Positions 6,161 to 48,913 of a DNA stretch of 51,192 bases are shown here, one piece after another; the first letter of the stretch is position 1; each line of letters opens with the position of its first letter. Made by a program: the position numbers and the translations under genes. The notes under the pieces are model-generated. The model was not told where the DNA came from. It searched no databases and was given only the letters and a program-made list of their open reading frames with translations. This DNA is from a virus. Taxonomy: Duplodnaviria > Heunggongvirae > Uroviricota > Caudoviricetes. Location of the stretch: IMG/VR virus record IMGVR_UViG_2627854098_000004; one strand, 5' to 3'.

Positions 6161-6760
6161 TCAGAATTTATAACCGACACCAACGATGAAACCGTCAGTG
6201 CGCCAGTCGCCACTGCCGGAACCTTCATAAGCAATATCAATGGCCACGGATTCGGTCGGGTTAAACTGCACGCCAGCCCCCCACGCCAGAGACGTGTCGC
6301 TGTAGCGACCGTCATCACTTCCGGTCAGCACATCGTCCGTTTTCCCCTTGTTATCAGTTACGCGGAGATAATCCCCGGAGAAAGTCGACACACGGCTGTA
6401 AGCCACGCCCGCCATCGCATACGTGCTGAACCATTCATTCACGCGTACAGACGGCCCCGCCATCATGCTGAACCAGCGGTTACGCACGGAATCTTCATGC
6501 CAGCGGGTATCGCTGTAGTGCGTTTTTTGCTCATCCTCAGCATTGGCATAACTGAAGGACGTAATCAGCCCCAGCGCGTCCGTAAACTCATAACGGTATT
6601 TCACGTTAATCCCGTTCAGATTATCGCTGCCGGGAGCGTTCGTACGGGCATGAAGATACCCCGCGCTCAGTGTGGACTGATGTTCAGACGCCCATGCAGG
6701 CGCACCGGATACGGACAGACAGATGGCTGCGGACAAAATGGCTGCACATAATTTACGCAT
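6161..6760 (-). CDS. lom: Lom outer-membrane protein (Ail/Lom family)
   Basis: 199-aa ORF with signal peptide; near-identical to lambda Lom as I recall it; position between J and stf as in lambda. Confidence 0.85.
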   Translation of the reverse strand: MRKLCAAILSAAICLSVSGAPAWASEHQSTLSAGYLHARTNAPGSDNLNGINVKYRYEFTDALGLITSFSYANAEDEQKTHYSDTRWHEDSVRNRWFSMMAGPSVRVNEWFSTYAMAGVAYSRVSTFSGDYLRVTDNKGKTDDVLTGSDDGRYSDTSLAWGAGVQFNPTESVAIDIAYEGSGSGDWRTDGFIVGVGYKF

Positions 6761-6827: not shown

Positions 6828-9800
6828 TCAGCTAATCGTGATGCCTGCAGTGGCTTTCTTCATCACAACAACCAGCAAATCGCTGATACTTGCTGTGGGA
6901 TACCAGCCATTTACCCACCATGCTGATACAGAAAACTCCAGCGTCATGTCGCCGCGACCAGCAGGCATATCAATAACACCACTGTAAACCAGCGTATTAT
7001 CCATCGCGGTACGGTTATAAATTTCAGCACCGTTTTTCTTCACTATCAGGCGGCATGACGAATAAGTATCGCTGTTCTCCCGCTCATGTCTGGCACCGCT
7101 GAAAGCCACCGCCGGAATAACAATCTGCCGGTTAAACGGCTGATCGTCATAAACCCTGACGGTAATGGTTCCTGATGGCCAACGCTTCGGTGCACGGGAG
7201 TCACGAGGGAAAGCCTTACCCACTGTTTTAACGAGATCGCCTTCAATCTGGTTTGCAGACAGTTTCCCTCTGATGACACAGTTCTCGTTAATGGTGACAT
7301 TATTGAGCGTGCCGGTATTCGCCGTGATGGCTCCACTGATATCCGCATTGCGGGCTGTCAGCCTGCCATCCGGCGTCAGGGAAAACGTCGGAGGATTGCC
7401 GGATGACGTGATGCTCACCGCAAACAGTCGCTTCAGGAACACGTCGTTCATGAACAGCTGATTCCCCTGCGCCACAAACAGCGGCGTGGTGTTGCCGTTC
7501 TCCGGGGTAATCATCGCAATGCGATCGGCCTGCAGCAGAATGTTACTCAGGGTCTGACCATCAACATCCTCAATCCCCGCACCAATCCCGGCCACATAGG
7601 GAATACCGTTTTTTGTTTTCTGCACCTTCAGCATATACATGGCATTCAGCTCATTGCGCGTGTCTGACTGAACCCGCTGGATTTGCTGTATGGTCACGGC
7701 CTGGTCACCCAGCTTTTTATCCGTGGTCGAGGTAATTTCACTCCCTTTTTTATCCACGTACTGGCGGACCTGTGCTATCTGTCGGGCGTTTTCTGACTGC
7801 CCCTGGCTGACAGTCTGTGAGATTTCACTGCTCACCCGGTCCACTTTCTGGCTCACCTGCGCGATGGCCAGTGTCTGATCCTCATTCTTTTTCGCAACCA
7901 GCTGCGTGAGGCTGTTTTCCGCCTTCCCGATTTTCCGGGTCACTTCTGCGATATCCGTGTCCATCCGCTGACGGATATCTTCTTCCAGTTGCGTGACCTC
8001 CGTACGCAGCGCTGAAGCATCAATGCGCTCTTTCAGTGCCTGACCCAGAAGCGTCTCATCTATCAGCCCCCGGAAAATTTCCAGATACCCTTCACCATCA
8101 TTGCTGGGCTGCCCGCTGGCTTCCACAAAAGCAGATTTTCCCACCAGGTTGACGCTTCGCACGTAAAACCAGAAATCCGTTCCCGGCTTAATCCGGCTCC
8201 CCTGGACAGTCCACTGACTGCCGGTCCCCAGATAACGGGCAGATTTTTCCACCTGTGCTGTGTTCGTGATGCGTTTTTTCTGAGAACCAGAATTCAAACT
8301 GTACCGTCGGGTCATACACCGCAAGACGCGGGACCGCCGTTATCTGAAAATACCCCGGCGTCAGCTCAATGGTGGCGGGTTTTGCAGGTGCGTTAATCCG
8401 GAACGATACCGACGCCGGATCGCCCTGCTGTCCCCGGGCATTTACCGCCCGGACCGTCAGCGTGTAACGCCCCAGCGCCAGCTGCCTGAAGCGGTAAGTG
8501 GTTTCCGCCGTCCGGGCCGTGCTGACCAGCCGCTCACTGCCGTCATCCGCTGTTACGGTCAGACGGAGCAGGAAGCTCACGCCCTTCACCACCTTCGGCG
8601 TGTCCCAGCGCGCCAGCACCTGATATTCCCCGCTGTCTGCGGTGACTTCGGCGGTCAGGTGCTGCACCGCTGGCGGCGTGACACCATTCACCGTGCCGCT
8701 CTGGTCGCCGTCAAAGTGCGCTCCGTTATCCACGATGGCCTCTTTTTCCGGTACATGCTGCACGGCGGTGATGGCATACGTGCCGTCATCGTTCTCACGG
8801 ATACTCACGCAGCGGAACAGGCGCTGGCGCAACGTCGGCAGCTTCAGTCCCCATACGCTGTATTCTGCAACGCCGTCAGGAACACGGCTCACTTTTACCT
8901 TCACGCCGTCGGTGACGGACTGGACCTCCACGCTGACCGGATTCCCCTGTCCGTCAGCCAGGCTTATCAGCGTGGTGCCGGAGGATGGCAGCGTGATTTC
9001 ACGGTCGAGCGTCAGTGTCCGCGTCTGGTTGTTCACCGCCAGCACGCGCCCGCCGATGCTGATCCCCGCATAGTCATCATCACAGATTTCAATGACATCG
9101 CCCGGTACATGGCGAAGCCCTTCTGCACCCACGCTGAAGTCCACGGTCTGCGTTTCCAGCAGCTCCGTTTTAATCAGCCACAGCCCGGCGCGGTGTGCCT
9201 GCCCCCGGCTGGTACAGCCAAAGGCATCCATCTTCGTGACGTTACGACCGTAACGGGCAATGGCCTGCGTGTCCTCCACAAGCTCTGTCGCCGTCTCCCA
9301 GCCGTTATCCGGGTCAATCCAGTTCACCTCAACGGCATTATGGCGGTCTTTCAGGGCGCTGAAGCTGTAGCGGAACGGCGCGCCATCATCCGGCATCACC
9401 ACATTACTGCGGTTATAGGTCCACACCTTATCCGACGGTCGGTCCTGCACGAATGTCAGCGTCTGCCCGTTCCATACCGGCATACAGCGCATCGCCGAGC
9501 AAAAATCACTGAGCACATCCCACGCCTTGCGCTGTGTGGTCAGGTACGCATTACAGGTGATGCGCGGCTCCGTGCCGCCAAAGCCGTCCGGCACTGACTG
9601 GTCGCAATTCTGGCCGATGACATACAGCGCCCATTTATCCACATCTGCCGCACCAAGACGTTTCCCCATGCCGTAGCGCGGATGGGTCAGCATATCCCAC
9701 AGACACCAGGCCATGTTGTTGCTGTATGCTGGCTTAAACGTTCCGTCCCAGATACCGCTGTATTGCCGCGTCTGCGGGTTATAGTTCGACGGCACCTGCA

Positions 9801-10527
9801 GAATGCGCCCGCGAAGATGATAATTACGGCTCACCTGCTGGCTGCCGAACTGCTCCGAGTCCACCTGTACGCCGACCAGTGCCGTGTTCGGGTAGCACTG
9901 TTTCACATCGATGATTTCGGTGTATGACGACCAGAGCGTTTTGTTCTGCAACTGGTCTGTGGTGCTGTCCGGCGTCATCCTGCGCATCCGGATATTAAAC
10001 GGGCGCGGCGGCAGGTTATCCACCACCACCGAGGCCAGATACTGCGACGTGGTTTTGCCCTTAATGGTGATGTCTTTTTCCGTCACCCAGCCACCGTTAC
10101 GTTGAATCTGAACCAGCAGGCGGACTTCCGATGGATTCCTGTCCCCCTTTGAGGTGGTTTCCACCAGTGCCTGCACGCCGAAAGTAAAACGCAGACGGTC
10201 AATGTTTGCCGACGTGATGGTCCGGGTGATCGGCGTGTCATATTTCACTTCTGTACCGAGCACCGTCTCGGAGCCGGAGGATTCAAATCCCTCCGGCGGT
10301 GTCTGCTCCTGCTCACCGGCCCGGAACACCACCGTGACGCCGAATATATTGGTATTCCCCTCACTGTCCAGCACCGGCGTACTGTTCAGCAGCACGCTTT
10401 TTAATCCATCCACCGGACCTTCAACCGGCCCTTCGCTGATGGCGTCTATCACGCTCAGCATCTGGGATGATTTCAGGTTGTCCTTCGCTTCGCGCGGGGT
10501 ATGCCCCTTACTGCTGCCTTTACCCAT
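6828..10527 (-). pseudogene. J: tail tip/host-specificity protein J, split by a frameshift in a homopolymer at 8274-8279
   Basis: ORFs 8188..10527 (lambda J-like N-terminal 740 aa) and 6828..8324 (J C-terminal part) overlap; the reading frames join at the plus-strand T6 run 8274-8279 (A6 in the coding sense); removing one base restores [17 protein letters not shown]. Confidence 0.8.
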
Positions 10528-10587: not shown

Positions 10588-11260
10588 TCAGCGACCAATC
10601 ACCACAACCTGACCACCATCCCCTTCGTCTGCCGTGCTGATCTCCTGAGAAACCACGCGTGACCCCACGCGCATTTCACCGTACAGAACCGGCAGAACAT
10701 TGCCCTGGGCAACCATGTTATCCAGTGAGGAGAAATAGGTGTTCTGTTTGCCGTTATCCGTTGTCTGTGTACGGGGAGTTCTGGCTTTCGGTGCCAGCAT
10801 CTGCGCCACACCACCGAGCACCATACTGGCACCGAGAGAAAACAGGATGCCGGTCATACCACCGGCCCCAATGGCTGCCCCCCATGCTGCAAGGGTGGCT
10901 CCGGCGGTAAAGAATGATCCGGCAATGGCGGCAGCCCCCAGGACAATCTGGAATACGCCACCTGACTTGGCCCCGGCGACTCTGGGAACAATATGAATCA
11001 CAGCGCCATCAGGCAGAGTCTCATGTAACTGCGCCGTTAACCCGGACGTGCTGACGTCCCGCCCGGCAATCCGTACCTGATACCAGCCGTCGCTCAGTTT
11101 CTGACGAAACGCCGGGAGCTGTGTGGCCAGCGCCCGAATGGCTTCAGCCCCCGTTTTCACACGAAGGTCGAGTGCGGCGGCCAAATCGTTGTAAATCCCC
11201 GTAAAGGCAGATGCGCGCCATGCCCGGTGACGCCAGAGGGAGTGTGTGCGTCGCTGCCAT
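10588..11260 (-). pseudogene. I: tail tip assembly protein I with a +1 insertion about 29 codons in (near 11172)
   Basis: I-body ORF 10588..11184 (lambda I-like); the I N-terminus MAATHTLPLASPGMARICLYGDLQRFGRR lies in the K frame starting at 11260; gene span is 673 nt against 672 expected. Confidence 0.6.
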
Positions 11261-11902
11261 TTGTCGGTATAACCTCTCTCGTTTGCTCAGTTGTTCAGGA
11301 ATATGGTGCAGCAGCTCGCCATCACCACAGTAAATGGCGGCATGATTCGGCACCGATGAACCAAAACAGCACAGCAGCACATCGCCCGGTTGTGCTGATG
11401 ACAACGGCACCTGATACAGCCCTGTGGCCTCCAGATTATCCAGATAGAGATTCTGGCCGTTACGCCACCAGTCATCCTCACGATAAAAGTCCGGCATCTC
11501 AATCCCCGCCAGATGATAAGCATCCCGGAACAGTGTGTAACAGTCCGTCACACCGTGCTCAAAGCGCCGCCCGGTGAGATGCGGCACACAGCGGAACTTA
11601 TGAATCGTCCCCCGGCAGACCAGCCACCACGGCAAATCACTCTGCACCTGCAGCCGCCGGTCGGCCTCACTCAGCCAGGGCAGACCACCGGGGTGGCTGT
11701 GGACCAGCGCCACAATCTCACCCTGCATTTCTGCCTGCAGCCAGTCTTCCGGCGACATACGGAAATACGCCTCCGGCTCACCGGAGATATTCACGCAGGG
11801 GAAATATCTTTCCCCCTCCGGCGTGCTTACCACGAAGCCGCACGACTCCGCTGGCGCACATCGCCGGGCGTGCGCCAGAATCGCTGATTCTGTCTGTGTC
11901 AT
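11144..11902 (-). CDS. K: tail tip assembly protein K (MPN/JAMM HSHPGG motif plus NlpC/P60-like Cys-His-His); C-terminus altered by frameshift
   Basis: 252-aa ORF starting 5 nt after the L stop; a lambda-type frame would end at 11159-11157; here an extra base near 11271 shifts the C-terminal about 40 residues into the I-start frame. Confidence 0.65.
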   Translation of the reverse strand: MTQTESAILAHARRCAPAESCGFVVSTPEGERYFPCVNISGEPEAYFRMSPEDWLQAEMQGEIVALVHSHPGGLPWLSEADRRLQVQSDLPWWLVCRGTIHKFRCVPHLTGRRFEHGVTDCYTLFRDAYHLAGIEMPDFYREDDWWRNGQNLYLDNLEATGLYQVPLSSAQPGDVLLCCFGSSVPNHAAIYCGDGELLHHIPEQLSKRERLYRQMAATHTLPLASPGMARICLYGDLQRFGRRTRPSCENGG

Positions 11903-11907
11903 GGGAT

Positions 11908-12606
11908 TTACTGCGAAAGTTTGTTAATGGAAAGGAAGCCGCCAAAGTTGCCGACGTTATTGCGGAACTTACAACCGCTCAGGCATTTGCTGCATTTATC
12001 CTTCGTGATATCGGACGTTGGCTGGTCATATTCATCCGCGACAGCCGGACCGCTATAACCGCACTCGTCACCGCGATAGGTCCAGGTGCAGGTGTTGGCC
12101 AGCATGATACGTCCCGGAAAAACAGCGCCATCCGTTTCCGTCGGCGTGGACAGTACAAAGGAGGCACTCACCGCGCTCAGTTCGCTGCACTGCTCAATGC
12201 GCCAGCGGCTGATCACCTCCTGCTCCGGATCGGCGTCACTGTTTCCGTTGACGAAGTTCACCGCATCCAGAAAACGGGCGTAAACCTTACGCCGGACCAC
12301 CGTTCCGCCGACCAGACTCTGCAGATCTTCCGCCATCCCTGTGACCATACCGTACAGGTTAGAAACCGTCAGCGTGGGGCGCGTACTGGTGCCTTTGCCA
12401 TTCAGTTCAAAACCGCTCCCCTGAATGGGATACGGCTGATACTGTCGCCCCTGCCAGGTGACCGGCTCACCTTTTTCGTTCTGCTCATTACAGAAAAAAT
12501 AACGTTCTCCACCGACCTCTGTCAGGTCGATTTCCCAGAGCACCACGCTGGCCGACTGCTCCGCACGGGTGCATTCATTCAGTGTTTCCTGCCGGATATC
12601 CTGCAT
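11908..12606 (-). CDS. L: tail tip assembly protein L
   Basis: 232 aa; near-identical to lambda gpL; ATGA overlap with the M stop. Confidence 0.9.
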   Translation of the reverse strand: MQDIRQETLNECTRAEQSASVVLWEIDLTEVGGERYFFCNEQNEKGEPVTWQGRQYQPYPIQGSGFELNGKGTSTRPTLTVSNLYGMVTGMAEDLQSLVGGTVVRRKVYARFLDAVNFVNGNSDADPEQEVISRWRIEQCSELSAVSASFVLSTPTETDGAVFPGRIMLANTCTWTYRGDECGYSGPAVADEYDQPTSDITKDKCSKCLSGCKFRNNVGNFGGFLSINKLSQ

Positions 12607-12935
12607 CAGTTCACCACCTGTTCAAACTCTGCGCTGAACTCAACACGCAGCATACTGACCCGCGACGACCATTTTGCGCAGGTCACCTTTATCTGCCGCC
12701 ACTCATAAGGCGGCGTCCACAGAAAGGCTTTCCAGCCCCCGTGCTCTTCCAGAAACAACTCCAGTACCGTGGCCTCCTCACGGGGGACAGAAAGCGTCAC
12801 GCTGTACGTTTTCAGGTTGGCATTCAGCCCGGCAGGCGCTCGCTGGGAATAGCCATCACCAAAGCGCACCTTTCTTACAGAAGGGACCGAAGCCACATCC
12901 ATACCGGGTTTCACTTTCCAGCGGAAGGTCTTCAT
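12606..12935 (-). CDS. M: tail tip assembly protein M
   Basis: 109 aa; near-identical to lambda gpM. Confidence 0.9.
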   Translation of the reverse strand: MKTFRWKVKPGMDVASVPSVRKVRFGDGYSQRAPAGLNANLKTYSVTLSVPREEATVLELFLEEHGGWKAFLWTPPYEWRQIKVTCAKWSSRVSMLRVEFSAEFEQVVN

Positions 12936-15496
12936 CGTCCACCTCCGGAGAACAGGCCACCATCACGCATCTGTGTCTGAATTTCATCACGGGCACCCTT
13001 GCGGGCCATGTCATACACTGCTTTCATCATCTGTGGACCTGGCAGACCATTCGTACCGTCGTTCTGAATCACCACGTTGTTGTTCTGCTCAAACCTGATA
13101 CCCTCTGAACGCCGCATTTGCGCCGGACTTCCGGTGCCACCGACATAACCGCCGGTGGCATAGCCGCGCATCAGCCGGTAGAGATTTCCCACGCCAATCC
13201 GGCTGGTTGCCTCCTTCGTGAAGACAAATTCACCACGGTGAACAATCCCCGCTGGCTCATATTTGCCGCCGGTTCCCGTAAATCCTCCGGTTGCAAAATG
13301 GAATTTCGCCGCAGCGGCCTGAATGGCTGTACCGCCTGACGCGGATGCGCCGCCACCAACAGCCCCGCCAATGGCGCTGCCGATACTCCCGACAATCCCC
13401 ACCATTGCCTGCTTAAGCAGAATTTCTGTCATCATGGACAGCACGGAACGGGTGAAGCTGCGCCAGTTCTGCTCACTGCCGGTCAGCATCGCCGCCATAT
13501 TCTGTGCAATACCATCAAAGGTCTGCGTGGCTGCACTTTTAACCTGCGACATACTGTCCGTGGCGCTCTCTTCCCACTCACTCCAGCCGGACTTCAGGCC
13601 TGCCATCCAGTTCCCGCGAAGCTGGTCTTCAGCCGCCCAGGTCTTTTTCTGCTCTGACATGACGTTATTCAGCGCCAGCGGATTATCGCCATACTGTTCC
13701 TTCAGGCGCTGTTCTGTGGCTTCCCGCGCTGCCTGCCGGTCAGTCAGCCCCCGGTTTTTCGCATCAATGGCGGCCCGTTTTGCCCGTTGCTGCTGTGCGA
13801 ATTTATCCGCCTGCTGCGCCAGCGCGTTCAGGCGCTCCTGATACGTAACCTTGTCGCCAAGTGCAGCCAGCTGGCGTTTGTACTCCAGCGTCTCATCTTT
13901 ATGCGCCAGCAGGGATTTCTCCTGTGCAGACAGCTGGCGACGTTGCGCCGCCTCCTCCAGTACCGCGAACTGACTCTCCGCCTTCCACAAATCCCGGCGC
14001 TGCTGGCTGATTTTCTCATTCGCTCCGGCATGCTTCTCCAGCGTCCGGAGTTCTGCCTGAAGCGTCAGCAGGGCAGCATGAGCACTGTCTTCCTGACGAT
14101 CGCCCGCAGACACCTTCACGCCGGACTGTTTCGGCGTTTTTCAGCGTCGCTTCATTAATCCTTTTTCGCCGCCGCCATCAGCGTGTTGTAATCCGCCTGC
14201 AGGATTTTCCCGTCTTTCAGTGCCTTATTCAGTTCTTCCTGACGGGCGGTATATTTCTCCAGCGGCGTCTGCAGCCGTTCGTAAGCCTTCTGCGCCTCTT
14301 CGGTATATTTCAGCCGTGACGCTTCGGTATCGCTCTGCTGCTGCGCATTTTTGTCCTGTTGAGTCTGCTGCTCAGCCTTCTTTCGGGCGGCTTCAAGCGC
14401 AAGACGGGCCTTTTCACGATCATCCCAGTAACGCGCCCGCGCTTCATCGTTAACAAAATAATCATCCTTGCGCAGATTCCAGATGTCGTCTGCTTTCTTA
14501 AACGCAGCCTCTGCCTTAATCAGCATCTCCTGCGCGGTATCAGGACGACCAATATCCAGCACCGCATCCCACATGGATTTGAATGCCCGCGCTGTCCTGT
14601 CTGCCCAGGTCTCCAGCGTGCCCATGTTCTCTTTCAGGCGGCGGGTCTGGTCATCAAACCCTTTCGTCGCGGCCTCGTTCGCCGCCTGCAATGCCCCGGC
14701 CTCTTCGCCGGAACGCTGCAACTGAGCAACATACGCAATCTGCTCCGCCGTCACGTTATGGAACTGGCGCGCCATCGCTGTCAGCCCCGACGTCGGGTCA
14801 GTGGTCAGCTTCCCGAAGGCTTCAGCGACCTTGTCCACCTCCACGCCGGATGCAGAGGAGAAACGCGCCACACTCTGGCTGATGGACGCAATCTGAGCCT
14901 CACCGCTTACCCCCGCCTTAACCAGTGCGCTGAGTGACTCGCTGGTCTGGTTAAACGTCAGCCCTGCCGCCTGCCCGGCTCTGGACAGGACCAGCATGCG
15001 ATCTGCCGTCAGACCCGACTGATTGCCGGAAAGGACCAGCGTTTTGTTGAAATCGGACAGGGTTGAGTTGCCCTGATACCAGGCATACGCCAGCGCACCG
15101 GTCGCCACCGCCAGCGAGGTGGCCCCCACCATCGGCAGGGTGATCGCACCGGCAAGCCCCCTGAACATGGGGATCATCCCGCCGAAGGAGTCCTTAACCT
15201 GACCACCCTGTTGCAGCAGGATCAGCCACGGACTTTGCCCGCCTGCAAGCTGCGTGGCCACGTCGGTGAACTGTGCAGGCAGCATACGCATGGCGGCTTT
15301 ATACTGCCCGACGGAAATCCCCGCTTTCTGTGCAGCCAGCGCCTGTCGGCCTCAGCGACTGTTCAACGACTGCCGCTGTTTTTTTCGCATCACTTTCCGT
15401 ACCGGAAAAATGACGCCTGACTCTGGCCATCTGCTCGTCAAATCTGGCCGCATCCAGACTTAAATCAACGACCAGATCGCCTACCGGTTCAGCCAT
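12932..15496 (-). pseudogene. H: tape measure protein H, broken into three ORFs by three +1 insertions
   Basis: ORFs 15299..15496 (H N-terminus, 65 aa), 14155..15291 (378 aa) and 12932..14119 (395 aa) are colinear with lambda gpH (853 aa); span is 2565 nt against 2562 expected; first and last ORFs share a frame, the middle 1.2 kb is +1. Confidence 0.8.
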
Positions 15497-26117: not shown

Positions 26118-26219
26118 TTTACGGATGCAATATTAAAAAAACAAAAAGTTATATTCGAGAAGTACCGTAACCGGCTCATTTAAACCGTCTGGTCTGTTTC
26201 CTCCGGCTCTACAAAAATA

Positions 26220-26897
26220 ATGTCCATCATTTTTAATGGACACTATCGTATGAAACACCGGACCTGGATCACTGAAGCTTTACGTCTTCACTTTGAAGAA
26301 CATTTACCCCGGGTTGTGGCCGGGCGTCGCCTGGGTGTACCAAAATCAACAGTTTGTAGTATGTTCGTGCGCTTTCGGAGAGCTGGCCTTTCGTGGCCTT
26401 TGCCCGCAGGCATGTCGGAGCAGGAACTTGATGCCTGCCTTTACGGACAATTTTCCACGGTACCAGTCGTACGTCCTGAAAGCACCGTTATATCCGAAGC
26501 CCCCGTGGTAAAAAAACGTCCCCGGCGGCCCAACTTCCCTTATGAGTTTAAAATCGCCTTAGTGGAGCAGTCACTGCAGCCCGGAGCCTGTGTGGCGCAG
26601 ATCGCCCGGGAAAACGGAATCAACGATAACCTGCTCTTCAACTGGCGCCATCAATACCGGAAAGGTGGCCTGCTGCCTTCCGGAAAAAATATGCCGGCAC
26701 TGCTTCCCGTGACGTTAACGCCGGAGCCGGATAATAAAATCCCGGCCCCCGCACAGGAACCAGAGCAGATAAATACACCGTCCGACAGTCTGTGTTGTGA
26801 GCTGGTTCTGCCGGCCGGAACTCTCAGGCTTAAAGGTAAACTGACGCCGGCGTTATTACAGACACTTATCCGCGAAATAAAAGGGAGCAGCCACTGA
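26220..26897 (+). CDS. IS66-family accessory protein TnpA (start uncertain)
   Basis: ORF has an IS66 orf1-like C-terminal part (PNFPYEFKIALVEQSL...LLFNWRHQYRKG); the N-terminal extension may not be translated. Confidence 0.6.
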   Translation: MSIIFNGHYRMKHRTWITEALRLHFEEHLPRVVAGRRLGVPKSTVCSMFVRFRRAGLSWPLPAGMSEQELDACLYGQFSTVPVVRPESTVISEAPVVKKRPRRPNFPYEFKIALVEQSLQPGACVAQIARENGINDNLLFNWRHQYRKGGLLPSGKNMPALLPVTLTPEPDNKIPAPAQEPEQINTPSDSLCCELVLPAGTLRLKGKLTPALLQTLIREIKGSSH

Positions 26898-27244
26898 TGA
26901 TATCTCTCCCTGCAGGTTCGCGTATCTGGCTGGTTGCAGGTATCACCGATATGCGAAATGGCTTTAACGGCCTGGCATCAAAAGTTCAGAACGTCCTGAA
27001 GGATGACCCGTTCTCCGGACACCTGTTCATCTTCCGCGGACGCCGGGGTGACCAGATAAAAGTGTTGTGGGCTGACAGTGACGGACTGTGCCTCTTCACC
27101 AAACGCCTGGAGCGGGGCCGCTTCGTCTGGCCAGTCACCCGTGACGGCAAGGTGCACCTTACTCCGGCTCAGTTATCCATGCTTCTTGAAGGTATCAACT
27201 GGAAGCACCCGAAACGAACGGAACGCGCTGGAATCCGCATATAA
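26897..27244 (+). CDS. IS66-family TnpB
   Basis: 115 aa; [27 protein letters not shown] signature. Confidence 0.85.
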   Translation: MISLPAGSRIWLVAGITDMRNGFNGLASKVQNVLKDDPFSGHLFIFRGRRGDQIKVLWADSDGLCLFTKRLERGRFVWPVTRDGKVHLTPAQLSMLLEGINWKHPKRTERAGIRI

Positions 27245-27263
27245 CCCGTTGTAAAGTGAGGAT

Positions 27264-28835
27264 ATGGACACCTCACTTGCTCATGAGAACGCCCGCCTGC
27301 GGGCACTGTTGCAGACGCAACAGGACACCATCCGCCAGATGGCTGAATACAACCGCCTGCTCTCACAGCGGGTGGCGGCTTATGCTTCCGAAATCAACCG
27401 GCTGAAGGCGCTGGTTGCGAAACTGCAACGTATGCAGTTCGGTAAAAGCTCAGAAAAACTTCGTGCAAAAACCGAACGGCAGATACAGGAAGCACAGGAG
27501 CGAATCAGCGCACTTCAGGAAGAAATGGCGGAAACGCTGGGTGAGCAATATGACCCGGTACTGCCATCCGCCCTGCGCCAGTCTTCAGCCCGTAAACCGT
27601 TACCGGCCTCACTTCCCCGTGAAACCCGGGTTATCCGGCCGGAAGAGGAATGCTGTCCTGCCTGTGGTGGTGAACTCAGTTCTCTGGGATGTGATGTGTC
27701 AGAGCAACTGGAGCTTATCAGCAGCGCCTTTAAGGTTATCGAAACACAACGTCCGAAACAGGCCTGTTGCCGGTGCGACCATATCGTGCAGGCACCAGTA
27801 CCTTCAAAACCCATTGCACGCAGTTATGCCGGAGCGGGGCTTCTGGCCCATGTTGTCACCGGGAAATATGCAGACCATCTGCCGTTATACCGCCAGTCAG
27901 AAATATACCGTCGTCAGGGAGTGGAGCTGAGCCGTGCCACACTGGGGCGCTGGACAGGTGCTGTTGCTGAACTGCTGGAGCCGCTGTATGACGTCCTGCG
28001 CCAGTATGTGCTGATGCCCGGTAAAGTCCATGCTGATGATATCCCCGTCCCGGTCCAGGAGCCGGGCAGCGGTAAAACCCGGACAGCCCGGCTGTGGGTC
28101 TACGTCCGTGATGACCGTAACGCCGGTTCACAGATGCCCCCGGCGGTCTGGTTCGCGTACAGTCCGGACCGGAAAGGTATCCATCCACAAAATCACCTGG
28201 CCGGTTACAGCGGTGTGCTTCAGGCCGATGCTTACGGTGGTTACCGGGCGTTATACGAATCCGGCAGAATAACGGAAGCCGCGTGTATGGCTCATGCCCG
28301 GAGAAAAATCCACGATGTGCATGCAAGAGCGCCCACCTACATCACCACGGAAGCCCTGCAGCGTATCGGTGAACTGTATGCCATCGAGGCAGAGGTCCGG
28401 GGCTGTTCAGCAGAACAGCGTCTGGCGGCAAGAAAAGCCAGAGCCGCGCCACTGATGCAGTCACTGTATGACTGGATACAGCAACAGATGAAAACACTGT
28501 CGCGTCACTCAGATACGGCAAAAGCGTTCGCATACCTGCTGAAACAGTGGGATGCACTGAACGTGTACTGCAGTAATGGCTGGGTGGAAATCGACAACAA
28601 CATCGCAGAGAACGCCTTACGGGGAGTGGCCGTAGGCCGGAAAAACTGGATGTTCGCGGGTTCCGACAGCGGTGGTGAACATGCGGCGGTGTTGTACTCG
28701 CTGATCGGCACATGCCGTCTGAACAATGTGGAGCCAGAAAAGTGGCTGCGTTACGTCATTGAACATATCCAGGACTGGCCGGCAAACCGGGTACGCGATC
28801 TGTTGCCCTGGAAAGTTGATCTGAGCTCTCAGTAA
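27264..28835 (+). CDS. IS66-family transposase TnpC
   Basis: 523 aa; zinc-ribbon CxxC...CxxC and IS66 transposase core. Confidence 0.85.
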
Positions 28836-30501: not shown

Positions 30502-30795
30502 ATGAAAAAAATGTTGTTTTCTGCCGCTCTGGCAATGCTTATTACAGGATGTGCTCAACAGACGTTTACTGTTGGAAACAAACCTACAGCAGTAACACCA
30601 AAGGAAACCATCACCCATCATTTCTTCGTTTCGGGAATTGGGCAGAAGAAAACTGTCGATGCAGCAAAAATTTGTGGTGGTGCAGAAAATGTTGTTAAAA
30701 CAGAAACCCAGCAAACATTCGTAAATGGATTGCTCGGTTTTATTACTTTAGGCATTTATACTCCGCTGGAAGCGCGTGTGTATTGCTCACAATAA
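30502..30795 (+). CDS. bor: Bor lipoprotein (serum-resistance family)
   Basis: Start MKKMLFSAALAMLITGCAQQ; near-identical to lambda Bor; opposite strand to the lysis genes as in lambda. Confidence 0.9.
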   Translation: MKKMLFSAALAMLITGCAQQTFTVGNKPTAVTPKETITHHFFVSGIGQKKTVDAAKICGGAENVVKTETQQTFVNGLLGFITLGIYTPLEARVYCSQ

Positions 30796-32585: not shown

Positions 32586-33668
32586 ATGAAAAAATTAACA
32601 GTGGCAATTTCTGCTGTAGCTGCATCAGTACTGATGGCGATGTCTGCTCAGGCAGCTGAAATTTATAATAAAGACAGTAACAAGCTGGATCTATACGGGA
32701 AAGTTAATGCCAAGCACTACTTCTCCTCTAATGATGCAGATGATGGTGATACTACTTATGCCCGTCTTGGCTTCAAAGGTGAAACCCAAATCAACGATCA
32801 ACTGACTGGTTTCGGTCAGTGGGAATATGAATTCAAAGGCAACCGTGCTGAATCTCAAGGTTCTTCCAAAGACAAAACCCGTCTTGCATTTGCAGGCCTG
32901 AAATTTGGTGATTACGGCTCAATCGATTACGGCCGTAACTACGGTGTAGCATACGACATCGGTGCGTGGACTGACGTTCTGCCAGAATTCGGTGGTGATA
33001 CCTGGACCCAAACAGATGTGTTCATGACTGGTCGCACTACTGGTGTTGCAACTTATCGTAACAACGACTTCTTTGGTCTGGTCGATGGCCTGAACTTTGC
33101 TGCTCAGTATCAGGGTAAAAATGACCGCACTGACGTAACTGAAGCCAATGGTGATGGTTTCGGTTTCTCCACTACTTATGAGTATGAAGGATTCGGCGTG
33201 GGTGCAACCTATGCTAAATCAGATCGCACTGACGGTCAGGTCGCCTATGGTAAGAGCAAATTCAATGCCTCCGGCAAAAATGCGGAAGTATGGGCTGCAG
33301 GCCTGAAATATGATGCGAACAATATCTATCTGGCTACCACATATTCTGAAACTCAGAATATGACCGTTTTTGGTAATAACCATATTGCAAACAAAGCACA
33401 AAACTTTGAAGCAGTAGCACAATATCAGTTTGACTTCGGTCTGCGTCCATCTGTTGCTTACCTTCAGTCAAAAGGTAAAGACCTTGGTGTTCATGGTGAC
33501 CGAGACTTAGTCAAGTATGTCGATGTCGGTGCTACTTACTACTTTAATAAAAACATGTCCACTTTTGTTGATTACAAAATCAACTTAATTGACGATAGTA
33601 AGTTTACCAAAACAGCTGGTATTGATACCGACGACATCGTCGCTGTAGGTCTGGTTTATCAGTTCTAA
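32586..33668 (+). CDS. phage-borne general porin (OmpC/OmpF/NmpC-Lc family)
   Basis: ORF 32526..33668; start ATG 32586 with RBS AAGGG; signal peptide ...AMSAQA then AEIYNKD, C-terminal F; between Q and S on the opposite strand, as for nmpC in DLP12. Confidence 0.9.
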
Positions 33669-36877: not shown

Positions 36878-37575
36878 ACACTTGCTCCTTTCAGTCCTAA
36901 CTTAGCTTTAATTTCTGCGATCTTCGCCAGCGCCTGAACACGATTTAGAGGTCTGCCGCCCATGACAGGAAGTTGTTTTACTGGTTCAGGTATCGTCTCA
37001 CCACGGTTAATTCGCGCTGTCATACAGGTCAGTTCATCGGCAGCCTTGCGTCGTAATTCCGCGTCAGTCAGCGCATTGGCCCGCATGTTCTGGTACAGGT
37101 TGGTAACCAGCCAGTAGTGCGCGTTCGATTTCCACGGATAAGACTCTGCATCCGGATACAGGCCTCGCTTCCGGCAATACTCGTAAACCATATCAACCAG
37201 CTCGCTGACGTTTGGCAGTCCGGCGATAACGGATGCTTCTTCCCGGCACCATGCAACAAACTGCCCGGGTGATGGCAGAAATGGTCGATTCTGCCGACGG
37301 GCTACGCGCATTCCTGCGTTAACCTGTTCCATTGTGGTGATCCCGTTTTCCCGGAAAGCCAGAACCCACTGGCGGCGGATTTCGTTCAGTTCGTTCTGGT
37401 CACGGTTAGCCAGACTCGCCGGGAAAGTTGCCAGTAACTGGCTGAACACACCGTTGATGATCTGCGCTACCTGCTGTACCTGCGGCTTTTCGTCGTACTG
37501 TTCCGGCATGTTGTTGGCGATCCGACGCATCTGCTCACGGTCAAAATTAACCATCTGTGCGGCGATGTTTTTCAT
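36874..37575 (-). CDS. P: replication protein P (DnaB loader)
   Basis: 233 aa; near-identical to lambda P; ATGA overlap with the O stop. Confidence 0.9.
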   Translation of the reverse strand: MKNIAAQMVNFDREQMRRIANNMPEQYDEKPQVQQVAQIINGVFSQLLATFPASLANRDQNELNEIRRQWVLAFRENGITTMEQVNAGMRVARRQNRPFLPSPGQFVAWCREEASVIAGLPNVSELVDMVYEYCRKRGLYPDAESYPWKSNAHYWLVTNLYQNMRANALTDAELRRKAADELTCMTARINRGETIPEPVKQLPVMGGRPLNRVQALAKIAEIKAKLGLKGASV

Positions 37576-38470
37576 AAATCCACCCCGTAAATCCAGTCAG
37601 TGTTTGTCAGGTCGAGTTTTGGTTTGCAGGCTGTCACACCTGCCTGTTGCTTGTTACGGTTGATTTCGAGCTGGGTCCACTTGTCGCGGAGTTTGGCCGG
37701 GCTCAGCACGTTACCGGACCAGAAGTTGTCCTGGCATGCCCAGCGGAACAGTACACACATGTCGCGATGGTTACGTCCGTCACGTTCACGCATCAGGCGG
37801 ATATCGTTAGCCCACCCTGCAAAATTCGGTTTTCTGGCTGATGGCGCGATGGTCTTCACCATGTCAAACATCCATTCTGCGGCGGTCAGGTCTTCTGCTG
37901 TCCCCCACTTGCTGCCGCTCTGAATTGCAGCATCCGGTTTCACCACAGAAAGGTCGTTTTCTGGCTGGTCAGAGGATTCGCCAGAATTCTCTGACGAATA
38001 ATCTTTTCTTTTTCTTTTGTAATAGTGTCTTTTGTGTCCCCCTGTTTTGAGGGATAGCAATCCCCCAATTTGAGGGATGTTTTATCCCTCGTTTTAGGGG
38101 ATTTTCCCTCGTTTTGAGGGATACACCATTCTGAGATGTTTTTATTTGGTCCAAACATGCCGCCTTGCTGCTTGATAATATTCATTCTGACGAGTTCTAA
38201 CTTGGCTTCATTGCACCGTTTGACGGGTAACTTTGTAATCTCGCTAAGTTGAGAATCGGTGATTCTGTCCATTGGTTTATTCCATCCATAGGTTTTACGC
38301 AGAATGGCAAGCAGCACTTTAAACTGTCGCTTGGTCAGATCTGCGCCTGAATAAGCCTCAAGCAGCATATTTGATAGTCTGGCGTAACCATCATCGAGAT
38401 CTGCCACATTACGCTCCTGTTTGGCAAAGTTACCTCTGCAGAAGTTGAGTATTTTTGCTGTATTTGTCAT
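37572..38470 (-). pseudogene. O: replication initiator O, split by a 1-nt deletion in the AT-rich ori segment
   Basis: ORFs 37940..38470 (O N-terminus) and 37572..38060 (O C-terminus) overlap; total 899 nt against 900 expected; the frame change maps to the plus-strand T5 run 38009-38013. Confidence 0.75.
38041..38120. repeat. ori iterons (four roughly 19-bp O-binding repeats) inside the O gene
   Basis: On the - strand four tandem copies of TCCCTCAAAACGAGGGA-like repeats, followed by an A/T-rich segment at 37990-38040. Confidence 0.85.
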
Positions 38471-41611: not shown

Positions 41612-41709
41612 GATCACCCAACCACATAAGCTGTGGGATGCAATGCCGAAGCAACCGTCTCAGGAGGAGCTTCGAGATTGCATCGCCAAAGTTTATTCGG
41701 GAGGAATCC

Positions 41710-41798
41710 ATGTCCAGAAAAACAGAATTTAAAGGCACCGCAGCTTCTCGCCGTAGAGCTCGTCGCGCAAATCTGCAAAGTCAGGAGGCGATCAGCTC
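41710..41798 (+). pseudogene. N: N antiterminator, 5' fragment (codons 1-29), interrupted by IS66
   Basis: ATG 41710 with RBS GGAGGAA; arginine-rich N-terminus MSRKTEFKGTAASRRRARRA; reading frame continues at 44249 after the IS and one copy of the target duplication. Confidence 0.55.
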
Positions 41799-41835
41799 GT
41801 AAGCGTGCAGCAAGAACCGTATTGACGGGGATGTG

Positions 41836-43374
41836 TTATTCAGTCGGCAGTGCTACGCGCCAGGGGAGCAGTTCGCCGACCCGGTTTATCGGCCAGTCGG
41901 CTATGACGTCAAGGACATAGCGGAGGTAGCTTTCTGGCTCCACTCCGTTCAGTTTGCACGTCCCGATCAGGCTGTACAGCAGCGCTCCCCGCTCTCCTCC
42001 ATGATCCGAACCGAAGAACAGGTAGTTTTTGCGGCCCAGACTGACCATCCGCAACGCATTTTCAGCGATGTTATTGTCCGCCTCAGCCCAGCCATCATCT
42101 GCATAGTACGTCAGCGCCGGCCACTGGTTCAGGGCGTATGCGAACGCTTTCGCCAGTTCTGAGTGTCGCGACAGGGTTTTCATCTTTTCACGCAGCCAGC
42201 TTTCCAGGGATTTCAGCAGCGGTTTCGTTTTCAACTGACGTTCGGCAAGGCGCTGCTCCGCCGTCATTCCCCTTATCTCTGCCTCGATGGCGTACAGTTC
42301 GCCGATCCGTTTCAGCGCTTCCTCCGTCAGGGCTGACGGGGTGCGAACGTGCACATCGTGGATTTTACGGCGGGCGTGAGCCCAACAGGCGGCTTCCGTT
42401 ATCCGGCCATCCCGGTACAGCTCGTTGAACCCGGCGTATGCATCCGCCTGCAGTACACCACTGAACCCCGCAAGATGGGTCTGCGGATGGATGCCTTTTC
42501 TGTCCGGGCTGTAAGCGAACCACACCGCCGGCGCCAGCGTTGACCCGGCGTTACGGTCGTCACGAACGTAGGTCCATAACCGCCCGGTCTTCGTTTTCTT
42601 ATTGCCTGGCAACAGCACCGGGACAGGCGTGTCATCAGCATGGAGCTTACCGTCAGTCAGCACATAGCCATGAAGCGCCTCTTCCAGCGGAGACAGCAGC
42701 CGGCAGCATGCATCCACCCAGCCCGACAGCAGTGAACGGCTCAGCTCCACACCTTGCCGGCCGTATATTTCTGACTGGCGATACAGCGGGGTGTGCTCTG
42801 CATACTTCGAGGTCAGCACGCGGGCCAGCAGCCCCGGTCCGGCGATACCCCGCTCGATGGGCCGCGAAGGTGCAGGTGCCTGCACGATGGCATCGCACTG
42901 AGTACAGGCATGTTTTTCCCGTACCGTCCGGATAACCCGGAAGGCGCTACGCATCAACTCCAGCTGTTCGGCGGTATCCTCGCCCAGATAGCTCAGTGAA
43001 CCGCCGCAGTTCGGGCAGCACGGCGCCGCAGGCAACAGTCGCTTTTCGTCACGGGGTAGTGATTCAGGGAACGGCTTACGGGTGCGGGTCTGACGCAACG
43101 GACGCTGTACTGCCGGGTCATACACCCTACCAGTCAGCGTATCGCTCTCTTTCTGAAGCCGGTTCAGATCGGCTTCCATTTGTGCGATACGGCGGGAGAC
43201 TTTTTCGGAACGACTGCCGAAGTTCATCCGGCGGAGTTTATCCAGCTGCGCCTGCAGATGGTCTATTTCGCGCTCCCGGTTGCTCAGCTTTTCCTGCAGG
43301 GCGTGGATCAGCGCTTCCTGTTCGGCCAGGCGCTGTTTCAGCAGGAAGATGTCGTCAGAAGAGATGTCGTTCAT
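41836..43374 (-). CDS. IS66-family transposase TnpC
   Basis: 512 aa; IS66 transposase with zinc-ribbon CxxC motifs. Confidence 0.85.
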
Positions 43375-43423
43375 AAGCCCGTATTTTACCGGGCTTATTC
43401 TGTGACAACCAGGATAAAGAGAT

Positions 43424-43771
43424 TTACAGCATGGTCAGGGAGGTCAGCAGCCGCTTAGGCTGTCGCCAGTCGATACCTTCCAGCAGCATCGCCAGCTGCG
43501 CCTGTGTAAGGAACACTTTGCCATCACGGGCTGACGGCCAGGCGAAGCGCCCACGCTCCAGCCGTTTGGTCAGGAGGCACAGTCCGTCACCGGTGGACCA
43601 CAGCAGTTTAACCTGACTGCCGCTGCGGCCCCGGAAAATGAAAACATGGCCGGACATGGGATCGTCTTTCAGCGCCGTCTGTACTTTCGCAGCCAGGCCG
43701 TTGAAGCCATTTCTCATATCAGTGATACCGGCAACCAGCCAAATTTTGGTCCCGGAAGGTAACGGGATCAT
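43424..43771 (-). CDS. IS66-family TnpB
   Basis: 115 aa; [27 protein letters not shown]. Confidence 0.85.
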
Positions 43772-44169
43772 CGCTTCAGTTCCTGTATCAGCAGAGTCAG
43801 GAGCTTTTCGCTGACATTGCCATTGAAGCGGAGCGTCCCGTGCCGGAACGTTACCTCACAGCTGATACTGAGGGTTTCCGGGTCCTCTGCGAGCGATTCT
43901 GGCTGTTCGGCAGCTGCATCGAGAGTCACAGGAAGTAGCTGGGGGCTCTCTGAAGAAGGTAATAGCAGCTTTCCCTCGCGCCATTGTTGTCGCCATTTGA
44001 ACAACAGATTGGCGTTAATGCCATTTTCAAGAGCAAGTTTTGAGATGGATATCCCGGGTTCACAGGAGGCAGCAACGAGCTGCTGTTTAAATTCGGGAGG
44101 ATAATTAGGGCAGCCTTTTCGCCTGCCGGGAGTCACATTTTTCTGCATATCTGACACTTTGGTTCCCAC
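43768..44169 (-). CDS. IS66-family TnpA
   Basis: 133 aa; ATGA-type overlap with tnpB. Confidence 0.8.
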   Translation of the reverse strand: MGTKVSDMQKNVTPGRRKGCPNYPPEFKQQLVAASCEPGISISKLALENGINANLLFKWRQQWREGKLLLPSSESPQLLPVTLDAAAEQPESLAEDPETLSISCEVTFRHGTLRFNGNVSEKLLTLLIQELKR

Positions 44170-44240
44170 TACTTATTTGGTGGACACCACTTTGTCTAAT
44201 TCGTCAGATTCTGACCAGACGGTTCAGGCTGTACGCTTAC

Positions 44241-44432
44241 ATCAGCTCCGACAAGCTACACAGGCCAACCCCTTCACGAGTGGTCTTGCAATGCAAGCTC
44301 AAACCAGCAATGAGAGCAGAAGTGATAACTCTGACAACGTTGACCAGAAAATATGAAGGTTCAACTTGTCTTCCGAACGTAGCTCTTTACGCGGCAGGCT
44401 ACCGGAAATCAAAACAACTGACGGCGAGATGA
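44241..44432 (+). pseudogene. N: N antiterminator, 3' fragment
   Basis: In-frame continuation of the 41710 ORF once the IS and one target-duplication copy are removed; stop TGA at 44430-44432; reconstructed N is 90 aa. Confidence 0.5.
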
Positions 44433-48537: not shown

Positions 48538-48720
48538 ATGCATTTTTCTGGCAGCGGGCTTCATATTCTGTGTGCTTATGCTTGCCGACATGGGGCTTGT
48601 TCAGTGACACCTCAGCAAGAAAACGCCCTTCGCAGCATTGCCCGTCAGGCTAATTCTGAAATCAAAAAAGTCAGACAGCAGTTTCCAAAAACGTCAATGA
48701 CATTTGCCGTAGCGTACTGA
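48538..48720 (+). CDS. hypothetical protein (lambda orf61 region; possibly frameshifted)
   Basis: 60-aa ORF; a separate 27-codon ORF starting at 48524 (MTTTECIFLAAGFIFCVLMLADMGLVQ) lies in another frame just upstream. Confidence 0.3.
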   Translation: MHFSGSGLHILCAYACRHGACSVTPQQENALRSIARQANSEIKKVRQQFPKTSMTFAVAY

Positions 48721-48913
48721 AGAAGCACCGCGAAACGGTAACGCTGAAGGGATTCACACCGACTCATTTAAGCCTGGCAATCGGCATGTTAAACGGCGTC
48801 TTTAAGGAACGATGAACATGAAAAGCAAAATTATCAGGGAGCTACAGGCTCCTTTTTTATTGTTCGCATTCACCCTCAAGCGTATTAACCAACAGTTCAG
48901 GGATTAATGAAAG

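What the first reader, a model, noticed from the sequence alone, without database searches (positions are those of the whole stretch)
12932..15496. Tape measure gene H is broken by three separate +1 insertions
Three ORFs (65, 378 and 395 aa) are colinear with a single 853-aa lambda-type tape measure protein. The gene span is 2565 nt against 2562 expected. The first and third ORFs are in the same frame and the middle 1.2 kb is +1, so one insertion near 15349 and two near 14120-14160 are needed. As read, only a 65-aa peptide would be made. This is either real decay of a tail gene or indel errors in the assembly.
Basis: partly seen in the sequence, partly recalled or inferred. Interest (0 to 1): 0.45.

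Follow-up and report, generated by a model that had tools for sequence, protein, structure and literature searches.

The report
Tape measure gene frameshifts, likely artefacts
A lambda-type phage tail tape measure gene in an E. coli prophage is read as broken by three extra bases, but these are almost certainly sequencing and finishing errors in an old 454 assembly, not real gene decay.

Summary
On the minus strand, 12932-15496 holds a lambda gene H homologue (97% DNA identity to lambda). It is cut into ORFs of 65, 378 and 395 aa by three 1-nt insertions, at 15351, 14156 and 14136. Deleting them restores a clean 853-codon ORF.

The window is E. coli APEC IMT5155 (NZ_CP005930.1), a 23x 454/Newbler assembly whose gaps were closed by PCR and direct Sanger reads.

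- All three insertions are unique to this record. They are absent from about 3,000 other complete E. coli genomes with this gene segment, from phage records, from IMG/VR, and (one motif scanned) from JGI metagenomes.
- IMT5155's own second copy of the tail module is intact. It has 0 substitutions against this copy over 6.1 kb and differs only by the three insertions.
- Against the near-identical strain DE17, 94 kb of unique sequence shows 0 substitutions and 5 single-base homopolymer differences.
- Four of those five break ORFs in IMT5155 only, including the near-essential fabH. Neighbouring K, J and O are also frameshifted only here.

Verdict: assembly or finishing artefact in an intragenomic repeat (about 0.9). 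Real decay is about 0.07. Low interest. RefSeq already flags the gene as "frameshifted".

The parts
12932..15496 (-). Lambda-type tail tape measure gene H, 2565 nt as deposited. RefSeq locus L282_RS29900, annotated 'phage tail tape measure protein, frameshifted'.
   Evidence: Pfam TMP_2 and Tape_meas_lam_C domains.
15299..15496 (-). ORF1, 65 aa: H residues 1-48, then 17 out-of-frame residues and a stop. GenBank AJB39003.1.
14155..15291 (-). ORF2, 378 aa, +1 frame: H residues 69-446, containing the TMP_2 domain. GenBank AJB39004.1.
12932..14119 (-). ORF3, 395 aa, original frame: H residues 459-853, containing the Tape_meas_lam_C domain.
15350..15351 (-). Insertion 1: one extra G on the coding strand (GAGCC to GAGGCC), codon 49. 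It lies 25 nt upstream of the last marker typical of this prophage (15326) and 119 nt from the first marker typical of the second copy (15232).
14155..14156 (-). Insertion 2: one extra A (GATTATG to GATTAATG). It creates the TAA stop that ends ORF2.
14136..14136 (-). Insertion 3: an extra C between A5 and GCC (GAAAAAGCC to GAAAAACGCC). It returns the reading to the original frame.
11137..15232 (-). Tract (H from about nt 265, then M, L, K) that matches IMT5155's second tail module at the sit locus (101 of 105 markers). In strain DE17 the orthologous prophage carries different alleles here. Identity to the second copy (0 substitutions) continues down to 9228.
11157..11902 (-). Gene K (C40 peptidase), frameshifted by two further 1-nt insertions (11272, 11172). 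Both are of the same non-homopolymer kind and both are present in both IMT5155 copies only.
6828..10527 (-). Gene J, frameshifted by T6 versus T5 at 8269-8274. Intact in DE17.
37572..38470 (-). Replication gene O, frameshifted by T5 versus T6 near 38008. Intact in DE17 and UTI89.

Best explanation
The gene is an ordinary, very probably intact lambda gpH-type tail tape measure gene. It sits in the lambdoid prophage integrated at icd in APEC strain IMT5155. The three extra bases are errors of the deposited sequence. The genome was assembled from 23x 454 reads with Newbler, and gaps were closed by PCR and direct Sanger sequencing. The H-to-J tail module occurs twice in this chromosome, in inverted orientation, and is therefore a repeat that such an assembly cannot resolve from reads alone. 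Shown: the insertions are unique to this record; the second copy in the same genome lacks them; the assembly carries other ORF-breaking single-base indels that a near-identical strain lacks. Inferred: the three bases entered during contig joining or gap filling of the repeat (low-coverage contig ends or single-pass Sanger reads). That inference fits their non-homopolymer context and their local clustering.
For: (1) Identity and method. The window is 100% identical to NZ_CP005930.1. The genome paper PMC4232414 states 454 GS Junior/Titanium, about 23x, Newbler 2.7, 121 contigs, with gaps PCR-amplified and directly Sanger sequenced.
(2) Uniqueness. 69-mers spanning the insertions match in full only IMT5155 among 5,426 complete E. 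coli genomes, of which 3,021 hold this part of H. Each insertion motif gives 0 hits in IMG/VR, and the 14156 motif gives 0 hits in JGI metagenomes. The un-inserted control motif is in at least 120 viral contigs. The 65-aa and 378-aa products occur on one contig only among about 15 billion proteins.
(3) Clean repair. Removing the 3 bases gives an 853-codon ORF with no other defect, 1 aa different from IMT5155's own intact second copy.
(4) Indels without substitutions. Copy A against copy B over 15232-9228 (6.1 kb) shows 0 substitutions and only these 3 insertions. The window against the DE17 orthologue shows 0 substitutions in about 45.7 kb outside the tract, plus three 1-nt homopolymer indels. 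The adjacent 48.7 kb of core chromosome shows 0 substitutions and 2 homopolymer indels.
(5) Error signature in the assembly. Those indels frameshift fabH, ymfA, O and J in IMT5155 only. K carries 2 more insertions. Z of the second prophage has 2 homopolymer insertions within about 205 nt of the record's origin.
(6) Local excess. At the background rate of 5 indels per 94.4 kb, three or more in H has P of about 4e-4. This points to a locally poor patch, and the patch coincides with the intragenomic repeat.
Against: The three sites are not long homopolymers, so they are not classic 454 length miscalls. The second copy, in the same sequence context, reads correctly, so the error is not context-driven. 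The prophage already looks defective: N is split by IS66, and ISCro1 sits between the lysis genes and nu1. H may therefore be under no selection, and real frameshifts would be tolerated. No raw reads or independent resequencing of IMT5155 were available, so the artefact is inferred and not observed.
Confidence: 0.9

Rival explanations
1. Real pseudogenisation. Gene H of an already crippled prophage has truly acquired three independent 1-nt insertions in strain IMT5155, so no tape measure protein and no tails can be made from this prophage.
For: N is interrupted by IS66 and there is a second IS insertion upstream of nu1, so selection on tail genes is probably relaxed. The insertion contexts are not typical homopolymer miscalls. 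Copy B in the same assembly reads correctly.
Against: There are zero substitutions against copy B over 6.1 kb and zero against DE17 over 94 kb of unique sequence, so the time available for mutation is minute. Three rare events in one 2.6-kb gene, plus two in K, one in J and one in O, without a single base substitution is contrary to the roughly 10:1 substitution-to-indel spectrum known for E. coli (my knowledge of mutation-accumulation studies). No other genome shares any of them. The same record has a frameshift in fabH, which shows that it does contain indel errors.
Confidence: 0.07
2. Real, recombination-associated mutation. The 4.1-kb tract that matches the second prophage was copied in by gene conversion at the junction of the large prophage-to-prophage inversion. 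Error-prone repair synthesis left a cluster of +1 frameshifts in the recipient copy.
For: Copy A switches from its own alleles to copy-B alleles between 15326 and 15232, close to insertion 1. The two tail modules are inverted repeats that have evidently recombined.
Against: Two of the insertions lie 1.1 kb inside the tract and not at its edge. No substitutions accompany them. The tract itself may be an assembly product, because DE17, identical elsewhere, keeps distinct alleles in its two copies. Known error-prone repair polymerases in E. coli favour -1 events and substitutions over +1 events (my knowledge).
Confidence: 0.025
3. Functional split or recoded gene. The tape measure is made by ribosomal frameshifting or as separate polypeptides.
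For: None specific. The upstream G/T pair does use a programmed -1 frameshift (GGGAAAG intact).
Against: There is no slippery motif at the three sites. Insertion 2 creates an immediate TAA stop. Three separate recoding events would be required. No relative among thousands has this arrangement.
Confidence: 0.005

Closest known systems
Bacteriophage lambda gene H (tail tape measure protein gpH, 853 aa; J02459 10542-13103)
   Same: Colinear over the full length. 97.2% DNA identity. The repaired protein differs from lambda gpH at 25 of 853 residues, mostly in a short C-terminal patch. Same Pfam domains TMP_2 and Tape_meas_lam_C. Same gene order V-G-T-H-M-L-K-I-J, with the G/T slippery site.
   Different: As deposited it carries three extra bases that split it into three ORFs. 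Lambda H is a single 2562-nt ORF.
IMT5155's own second tail module (prophage next to sitABCD; H = WP_039267898.1, record 4924206-4926767)
   Same: Identical base for base from window 15232 to 9228, except for the three insertions. The repaired protein differs by one residue (K57R), which lies upstream of the tract.
   Different: Intact 2562-nt ORF. Different head genes and a different 3' part of J. Opposite orientation in the chromosome.
Orthologous icd prophage of ST95-complex strains (DE17 WP_032153373.1; UTI89 WP_000840269.1)
   Same: Same integration site, same head genes and the same G/T proteins. 0 substitutions against DE17 outside the 11137-15232 tract.
   Different: H, K, J and O are all intact there. 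H-M-L-K carry about 100 different bases (A-type alleles) in DE17.
Single-base indel errors of 454/Newbler assemblies finished by PCR and Sanger
   Same: The platform is documented for this genome. The assembly shows homopolymer length differences that break fabH, ymfA, O, J and Z, against a strain with no substitutions.
   Different: The three H sites (and the two K sites) are not in runs of 3 nt or more. They fit contig-end or Sanger gap-fill errors better than classic pyrosequencing length miscalls. This last step is inference.

Membership tests
Lambda gpH-type tail tape measure protein | Full-length colinear sequence similarity to lambda gpH | tested here: met
   97.2% DNA identity over 2565 nt. 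ORF2 matches residues 69-446 at 99% and ORF3 matches 459-853 at 95%. The repaired protein is identical to lambda gpH at 828 of 853 residues.
Lambda gpH-type tail tape measure protein | Pfam TMP_2 (PF06791) and Tape_meas_lam_C (PF09718) above gathering score | tested here: met
   TMP_2 scores 219.5 bits (cut-off 30.2) in ORF2. Tape_meas_lam_C scores 77.7 bits (cut-off 23) in ORF3.
Lambda gpH-type tail tape measure protein | Position between the G/T chaperone genes and M-L-K-I-J, with the G/T -1 slippery site | tested here: met
   Annotated order V, G, T, H, M, L, K, I, J. GGGAAAG lies at nt 398 of G.
Lambda gpH-type tail tape measure protein | One uninterrupted ORF of about 853 codons | tested here: not met
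   As deposited there are three ORFs. The feature is met only after deleting the 3 inserted bases.
Sequencing or assembly indel artefact | Produced on an indel-prone platform, in a region that needed finishing | tested here: met
   454 at 23x, Newbler, PCR plus direct Sanger gap closure. The locus lies in a tail module of at least 6 kb that is present twice in the chromosome.
Sequencing or assembly indel artefact | The same assembly has ORF-breaking single-base indels in conserved or essential genes that near-identical strains lack | tested here: met
   fabH, ymfA, O, J, K and Z are frameshifted in IMT5155 and intact in DE17.
Sequencing or assembly indel artefact | Differences from the closest sequences are indels without substitutions | tested here: met
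   0 substitutions and 3 insertions against copy B over 6.1 kb. 0 substitutions and 5 indels against DE17 over 94 kb.
Sequencing or assembly indel artefact | Variant absent from every independent sequence | tested here: met
   with a positive control.
Sequencing or assembly indel artefact | Raw reads or resequencing contradict the deposited bases | not testable with these tools
   No reads or second assembly of IMT5155 are available in the collections searched.
Genuine decaying prophage pseudogene | Lesion shared by related strains or independent assemblies | tested here: not met
   Unique to one record.
Genuine decaying prophage pseudogene | Accompanying substitutions or other signs of elapsed neutral time | tested here: not met
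   The repaired ORF is flawless. Zero substitutions against copy B and against DE17.
Genuine decaying prophage pseudogene | Prophage otherwise defective, so selection is relaxed | tested here: inconclusive
   N is split by IS66 and ISCro1 lies upstream of nu1. DE17 has the same IS insertions and still has intact H, K, J and O.

The most novel reading that the evidence does not exclude
The three +1 insertions are real. They arose in one step as a mutation cluster during gene conversion between the two inverted prophage tail modules that also mediated the roughly 780-kb chromosomal inversion. This would be a footprint of mutagenic recombination repair that killed one copy of the tape measure gene.
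Probability: 0.03. Interest if true: 0.4.

Novelty: not a real feature. Interest (0 to 1): 0.07.

Why it matters
It matters mainly as a data-quality flag. IMT5155 is a much-used APEC reference genome, and its record contains single-base indels that falsely turn genes into pseudogenes: fabH, ymfA, and prophage genes O, H, K and J. Counts of pseudogenes, judgements about whether its prophages are intact, and pan-genome comparisons based on this record are affected. Even if the insertions were real, the result would only be one more dead tail gene in an already IS-disrupted prophage, and RefSeq already annotates it as frameshifted.

Tried and rejected
- I looked for any other carrier of the insertions. 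None was found in complete E. coli genomes, IMG/VR, JGI metagenomes (14156 motif only) or the 15-billion-protein collection.
- I looked for literature comment on errors in the IMT5155 sequence. The BEN2908 comparison paper does not contain the words frameshift, sequencing error or homopolymer.
- I considered that the three sites where IMT5155's copy B differs from DE17's copy B (13856, 13611, 13448) show a collapsed mosaic consensus. I rejected this as evidence. UTI89 and DE17 copy A share the IMT5155 alleles, so DE17 and VTB96815v copy B may simply carry derived SNPs.
- I considered that the insertions coincide with A/B polymorphic sites, as mixed-template Sanger peaks would. They do not.
- I considered programmed frameshifting. 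There are no slippery motifs, and insertion 2 creates an immediate stop.
- Whether the 4.1-kb copy-B-like tract in copy A is a true gene conversion or a repeat mis-resolution could not be decided.
- The sequencing method of DE17 could not be found.

Full report
**What is there**

On the minus strand, the ORF listing gives three ORFs: 15299-15496 (65 aa), 14155-15291 (378 aa) and 12932-14119 (395 aa). The 2565-nt span is 97.2% identical to lambda gene H. It is 98.4-98.8% identical to H of phage 21, mEp332 and PhiR49_1.

- ORF2 aligns with lambda gpH residues 69-446 at 99% identity. ORF3 aligns with residues 459-853 at 95%.
- ORF2 carries Pfam TMP_2 and ORF3 carries Tape_meas_lam_C, both far above gathering score.
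- The gene sits in the canonical order V-G-T-H-M-L-K-I-J. The G/T slippery heptamer GGGAAAG is intact.

A four-way DNA alignment with lambda, mEp332 and PhiR49_1 shows exactly three columns where only the window has a base:

- window 15351: G, GAGCC to GAGGCC, codon 49;
- window 14156: A, GATTATG to GATTAATG, which makes a TAA stop at codon 447;
- window 14136: C inserted between A5 and GCC, codon 454.

ORF1 and ORF3 share a frame and ORF2 is +1.

**Where the window comes from**

The window is 100% identical to the reverse complement of NZ_CP005930.1 positions 4102897-4154088. This is the chromosome of avian pathogenic E. coli IMT5155. It covers a lambdoid prophage integrated next to icd.

RefSeq already annotates H as "phage tail tape measure protein, frameshifted". 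It also flags K (C40 peptidase), J and the replication gene O of the same prophage as frameshifted.

The genome paper (PMC4232414) states the method:

- 454 GS Junior/FLX Titanium shotgun and 8-kb paired-end reads, at about 23x coverage;
- Newbler 2.7, giving 121 contigs in 8 scaffolds;

**The insertions are unique to this record**

- Among 5,426 complete E. coli genomes, 3,735 hold an H homologue, but only IMT5155 matches at 100%. The next best matches (DE17 and VTB96815v, 99.7%) are 2562 nt long and annotated as intact.
- A 69-mer spanning insertions 2 and 3 matches only IMT5155. A 69-mer spanning insertion 1 matches 3,021 genomes, but only IMT5155 in full; all other full-length matches have the one-base gap.
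- Exact motifs carrying each insertion give 0 hits in IMG/VR. The 14156 motif gives 0 hits in JGI metagenome contigs. The un-inserted control motif occurs in at least 120 viral contigs.
- The 65-aa and 378-aa products are each found on a single contig among about 15 billion proteins. That contig is the IMT5155 chromosome (AJB39003.1, AJB39004.1).

**The gene is otherwise perfect and has an intact twin in the same genome**

Deleting the three bases yields an 853-codon ORF with no other lesion.

IMT5155 carries a second lambdoid prophage next to sitABCD (record 4915619 to the origin and beyond). Its tail module is in the opposite orientation and its H (WP_039267898.1) is intact.

From window 15232 down to 9228 (6.1 kb: most of H, then M, L, K, I and the 5' part of J) the two copies have zero substitutions. 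The only differences are the three H insertions.

**Comparison with a near-identical strain**

DE17, an independent APEC O2 duck isolate, carries the orthologous icd prophage. It has the same IS66 insertion in N and the same ISCro1 insertion upstream of nu1, and its H, K, J and O are intact.

Over 49.9 kb the window and DE17 differ by 99 substitutions, all confined to 11137-15232, and by 11 one-base gaps.

- Outside that tract (about 45.7 kb) there are no substitutions at all. There are three homopolymer length differences: T6/T5 at 8274 in J, A7/A8 at 26134 (intergenic), and T5/T6 at 38008 in O.
- In the adjacent 48.7 kb of core chromosome there are again 0 substitutions and two homopolymer differences. 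A7/A6 frameshifts fabH and A6/A7 frameshifts ymfA, in IMT5155 only.
- In the second prophage, gene Z is broken by two homopolymer insertions within about 205 nt of the record's origin. K carries two insertions.

FabH is essential or nearly so in E. coli, and the shift at codon 256 would remove Asn274 of its catalytic triad (my knowledge of FabH). A real frameshift there in a virulent field isolate is not credible. The record therefore demonstrably contains single-base indel errors, at about one per 19 kb in unique sequence.

**Why H is worse than the background**

At 5 indels per 94.4 kb, three or more in a 2.565-kb gene has a Poisson probability of about 4e-4. Two or more in K has a probability of about 8e-4.

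The five H and K insertions also differ in kind. None extends a run of 3 nt or more, whereas all five background differences lie in runs of 5-8 nt.

Both H and K lie in the tail module that is duplicated in the chromosome, a repeat that 400-nt reads cannot bridge. Insertion 1 lies 25 nt from the last marker of the icd prophage's own type (15326). It lies 119 nt from the first marker of the other copy's type (15232), which is next to the point where two differently sourced sequences are joined. The two K insertions are shared by both copies, as expected if one repeat consensus was placed twice.

I infer that the H insertions entered at contig ends or through single-pass Sanger gap-fill reads. 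This step is inference, not observation.

**The rival: real decay**

The prophage is probably non-inducible because N is split by IS66, so real frameshifts would be tolerated. But real events would have to accumulate in a lineage that shows no substitution against DE17 in 94 kb and none against the sister copy in 6.1 kb. There would be three in H, two in K, and one each in J, O, fabH and ymfA. That is contrary to the substitution-dominated mutation spectrum of E. coli (my knowledge).

A single mutagenic gene-conversion event could in principle produce a cluster. However, two of the three insertions lie 1.1 kb inside the tract, and no substitutions accompany them. Programmed recoding is excluded by the lack of slippery motifs and by the immediate TAA at insertion 2.

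**Comparison with the known, and verdict**

The gene is a member of the lambda gpH tape measure family by sequence, domains and synteny. The only defining feature it fails, a single ORF, fails because of three bases that are very probably not in the organism.

I put the artefact explanation at about 0.9 and real strain-specific decay at about 0.07. Recombination-associated mutation takes about 0.025 and recoding about 0.005.

Novelty is nil: the feature is most likely not real, and if real it is an already-annotated pseudogene of a defective prophage. Its practical value is as a warning about the IMT5155 reference record.

**Open points**

- It is unresolved whether the 4.1-kb tract in which copy A carries copy-B alleles is a true gene conversion or a mis-resolved repeat.
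- Relative to UTI89, which has a single prophage reading icd-int-heads-tail-sit-icd', both IMT5155 and DE17 have icd and the sit/icd'/ymg/min region about 780 kb apart. The two tail modules act as inverted repeats at the ends of that segment. This is a large inversion mediated by prophage tail homology. It is reproduced in two independent assemblies and is therefore probably real.

Noticed in passing
window 11157-11902 (-): Gene K (C40 peptidase) is frameshifted by two 1-nt insertions (11272 T, 11172 C on the coding strand). They are present in both IMT5155 tail-module copies and absent from DE17 (both copies), VTB96815v and UTI89. This is the same non-homopolymer type as the H insertions. It suggests that one repeat consensus was used twice.
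   Followed up: partly
window 8269-8274 (gene J, 6828-10527, -): J is frameshifted by a T6 versus T5 homopolymer difference. It is intact in DE17, with no substitution anywhere nearby. This is typical of a pyrosequencing length miscall.
   Followed up: partly
window ~38008 (replication gene O, 37572-38470, -) and 26134 (intergenic): O is frameshifted by T5 versus T6. It is intact in DE17 and UTI89. There is a further A7 versus A8 difference in the intergenic region upstream of nu1.
   Followed up: partly
window 11137-15232: In this tract copy A carries 101 of 105 markers of IMT5155's second (sit-locus) prophage. DE17's orthologous prophage keeps its own alleles here. This is either a 4.1-kb gene conversion between the two prophages or a mis-resolved repeat in the 454 assembly.
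   Followed up: partly
whole window relative to L008 (NZ_CP005930.1 4890000-4929051) and L011 (UTI89): UTI89 has one prophage reading icd-int-heads-tail-sitDCBA-icd' remnant. In IMT5155 and DE17 the icd-int-heads part and the tail-sit-icd'-ymg-min part lie about 780 kb apart, in two prophages whose tail modules are inverted repeats. This is a large chromosomal inversion mediated by prophage tail homology.
   Followed up: partly
window 41677-44432 and 26220-28835: The antiterminator gene N is split by an IS66-family element. An ISCro1 (IS66-like) element sits between the lysis/iss region and the small terminase gene. Both are shared with DE17, and the ISCro1 copy is absent from UTI89. The prophage is probably not inducible.
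   Followed up: no
L012 3022 and 34886 (NZ_CP005930.1 4055918 and 4087782; outside the window): fabH (A7 versus A6) and ymfA (A6 versus A7) are annotated as frameshifted in IMT5155 only. There are 0 substitutions against DE17 in this 48.7-kb core stretch. This is strong evidence of indel errors in the record.
   Followed up: yes
L008 (NZ_CP005930.1 4928847 and 4928911): Gene Z of the second prophage is chopped into three small CDSs by two homopolymer insertions (A3 to A4, A5 to A6) within about 205 nt of the record's origin. The origin is where the assembly was circularised.
   Followed up: partly
L001 1501-4061 (phage PhiR49_1, PV340568.1): The closest phage record also has H annotated as two CDSs. 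The cause is a 1-nt deletion in a G-run (GGGGGGG in lambda, six G's in PhiR49_1). This is possibly another homopolymer sequencing error in a phage that was propagated on ECOR13.
   Followed up: no
window 30502-30795 (+), 32586-33668 (+), 6161-6760 (-), 48604-48815: The prophage carries cargo genes iss (bor-like serum survival lipoprotein), an OmpC-type porin and lom. A zapA-like gene is frameshifted in both IMT5155 and DE17, so that lesion is probably real.
   Followed up: no
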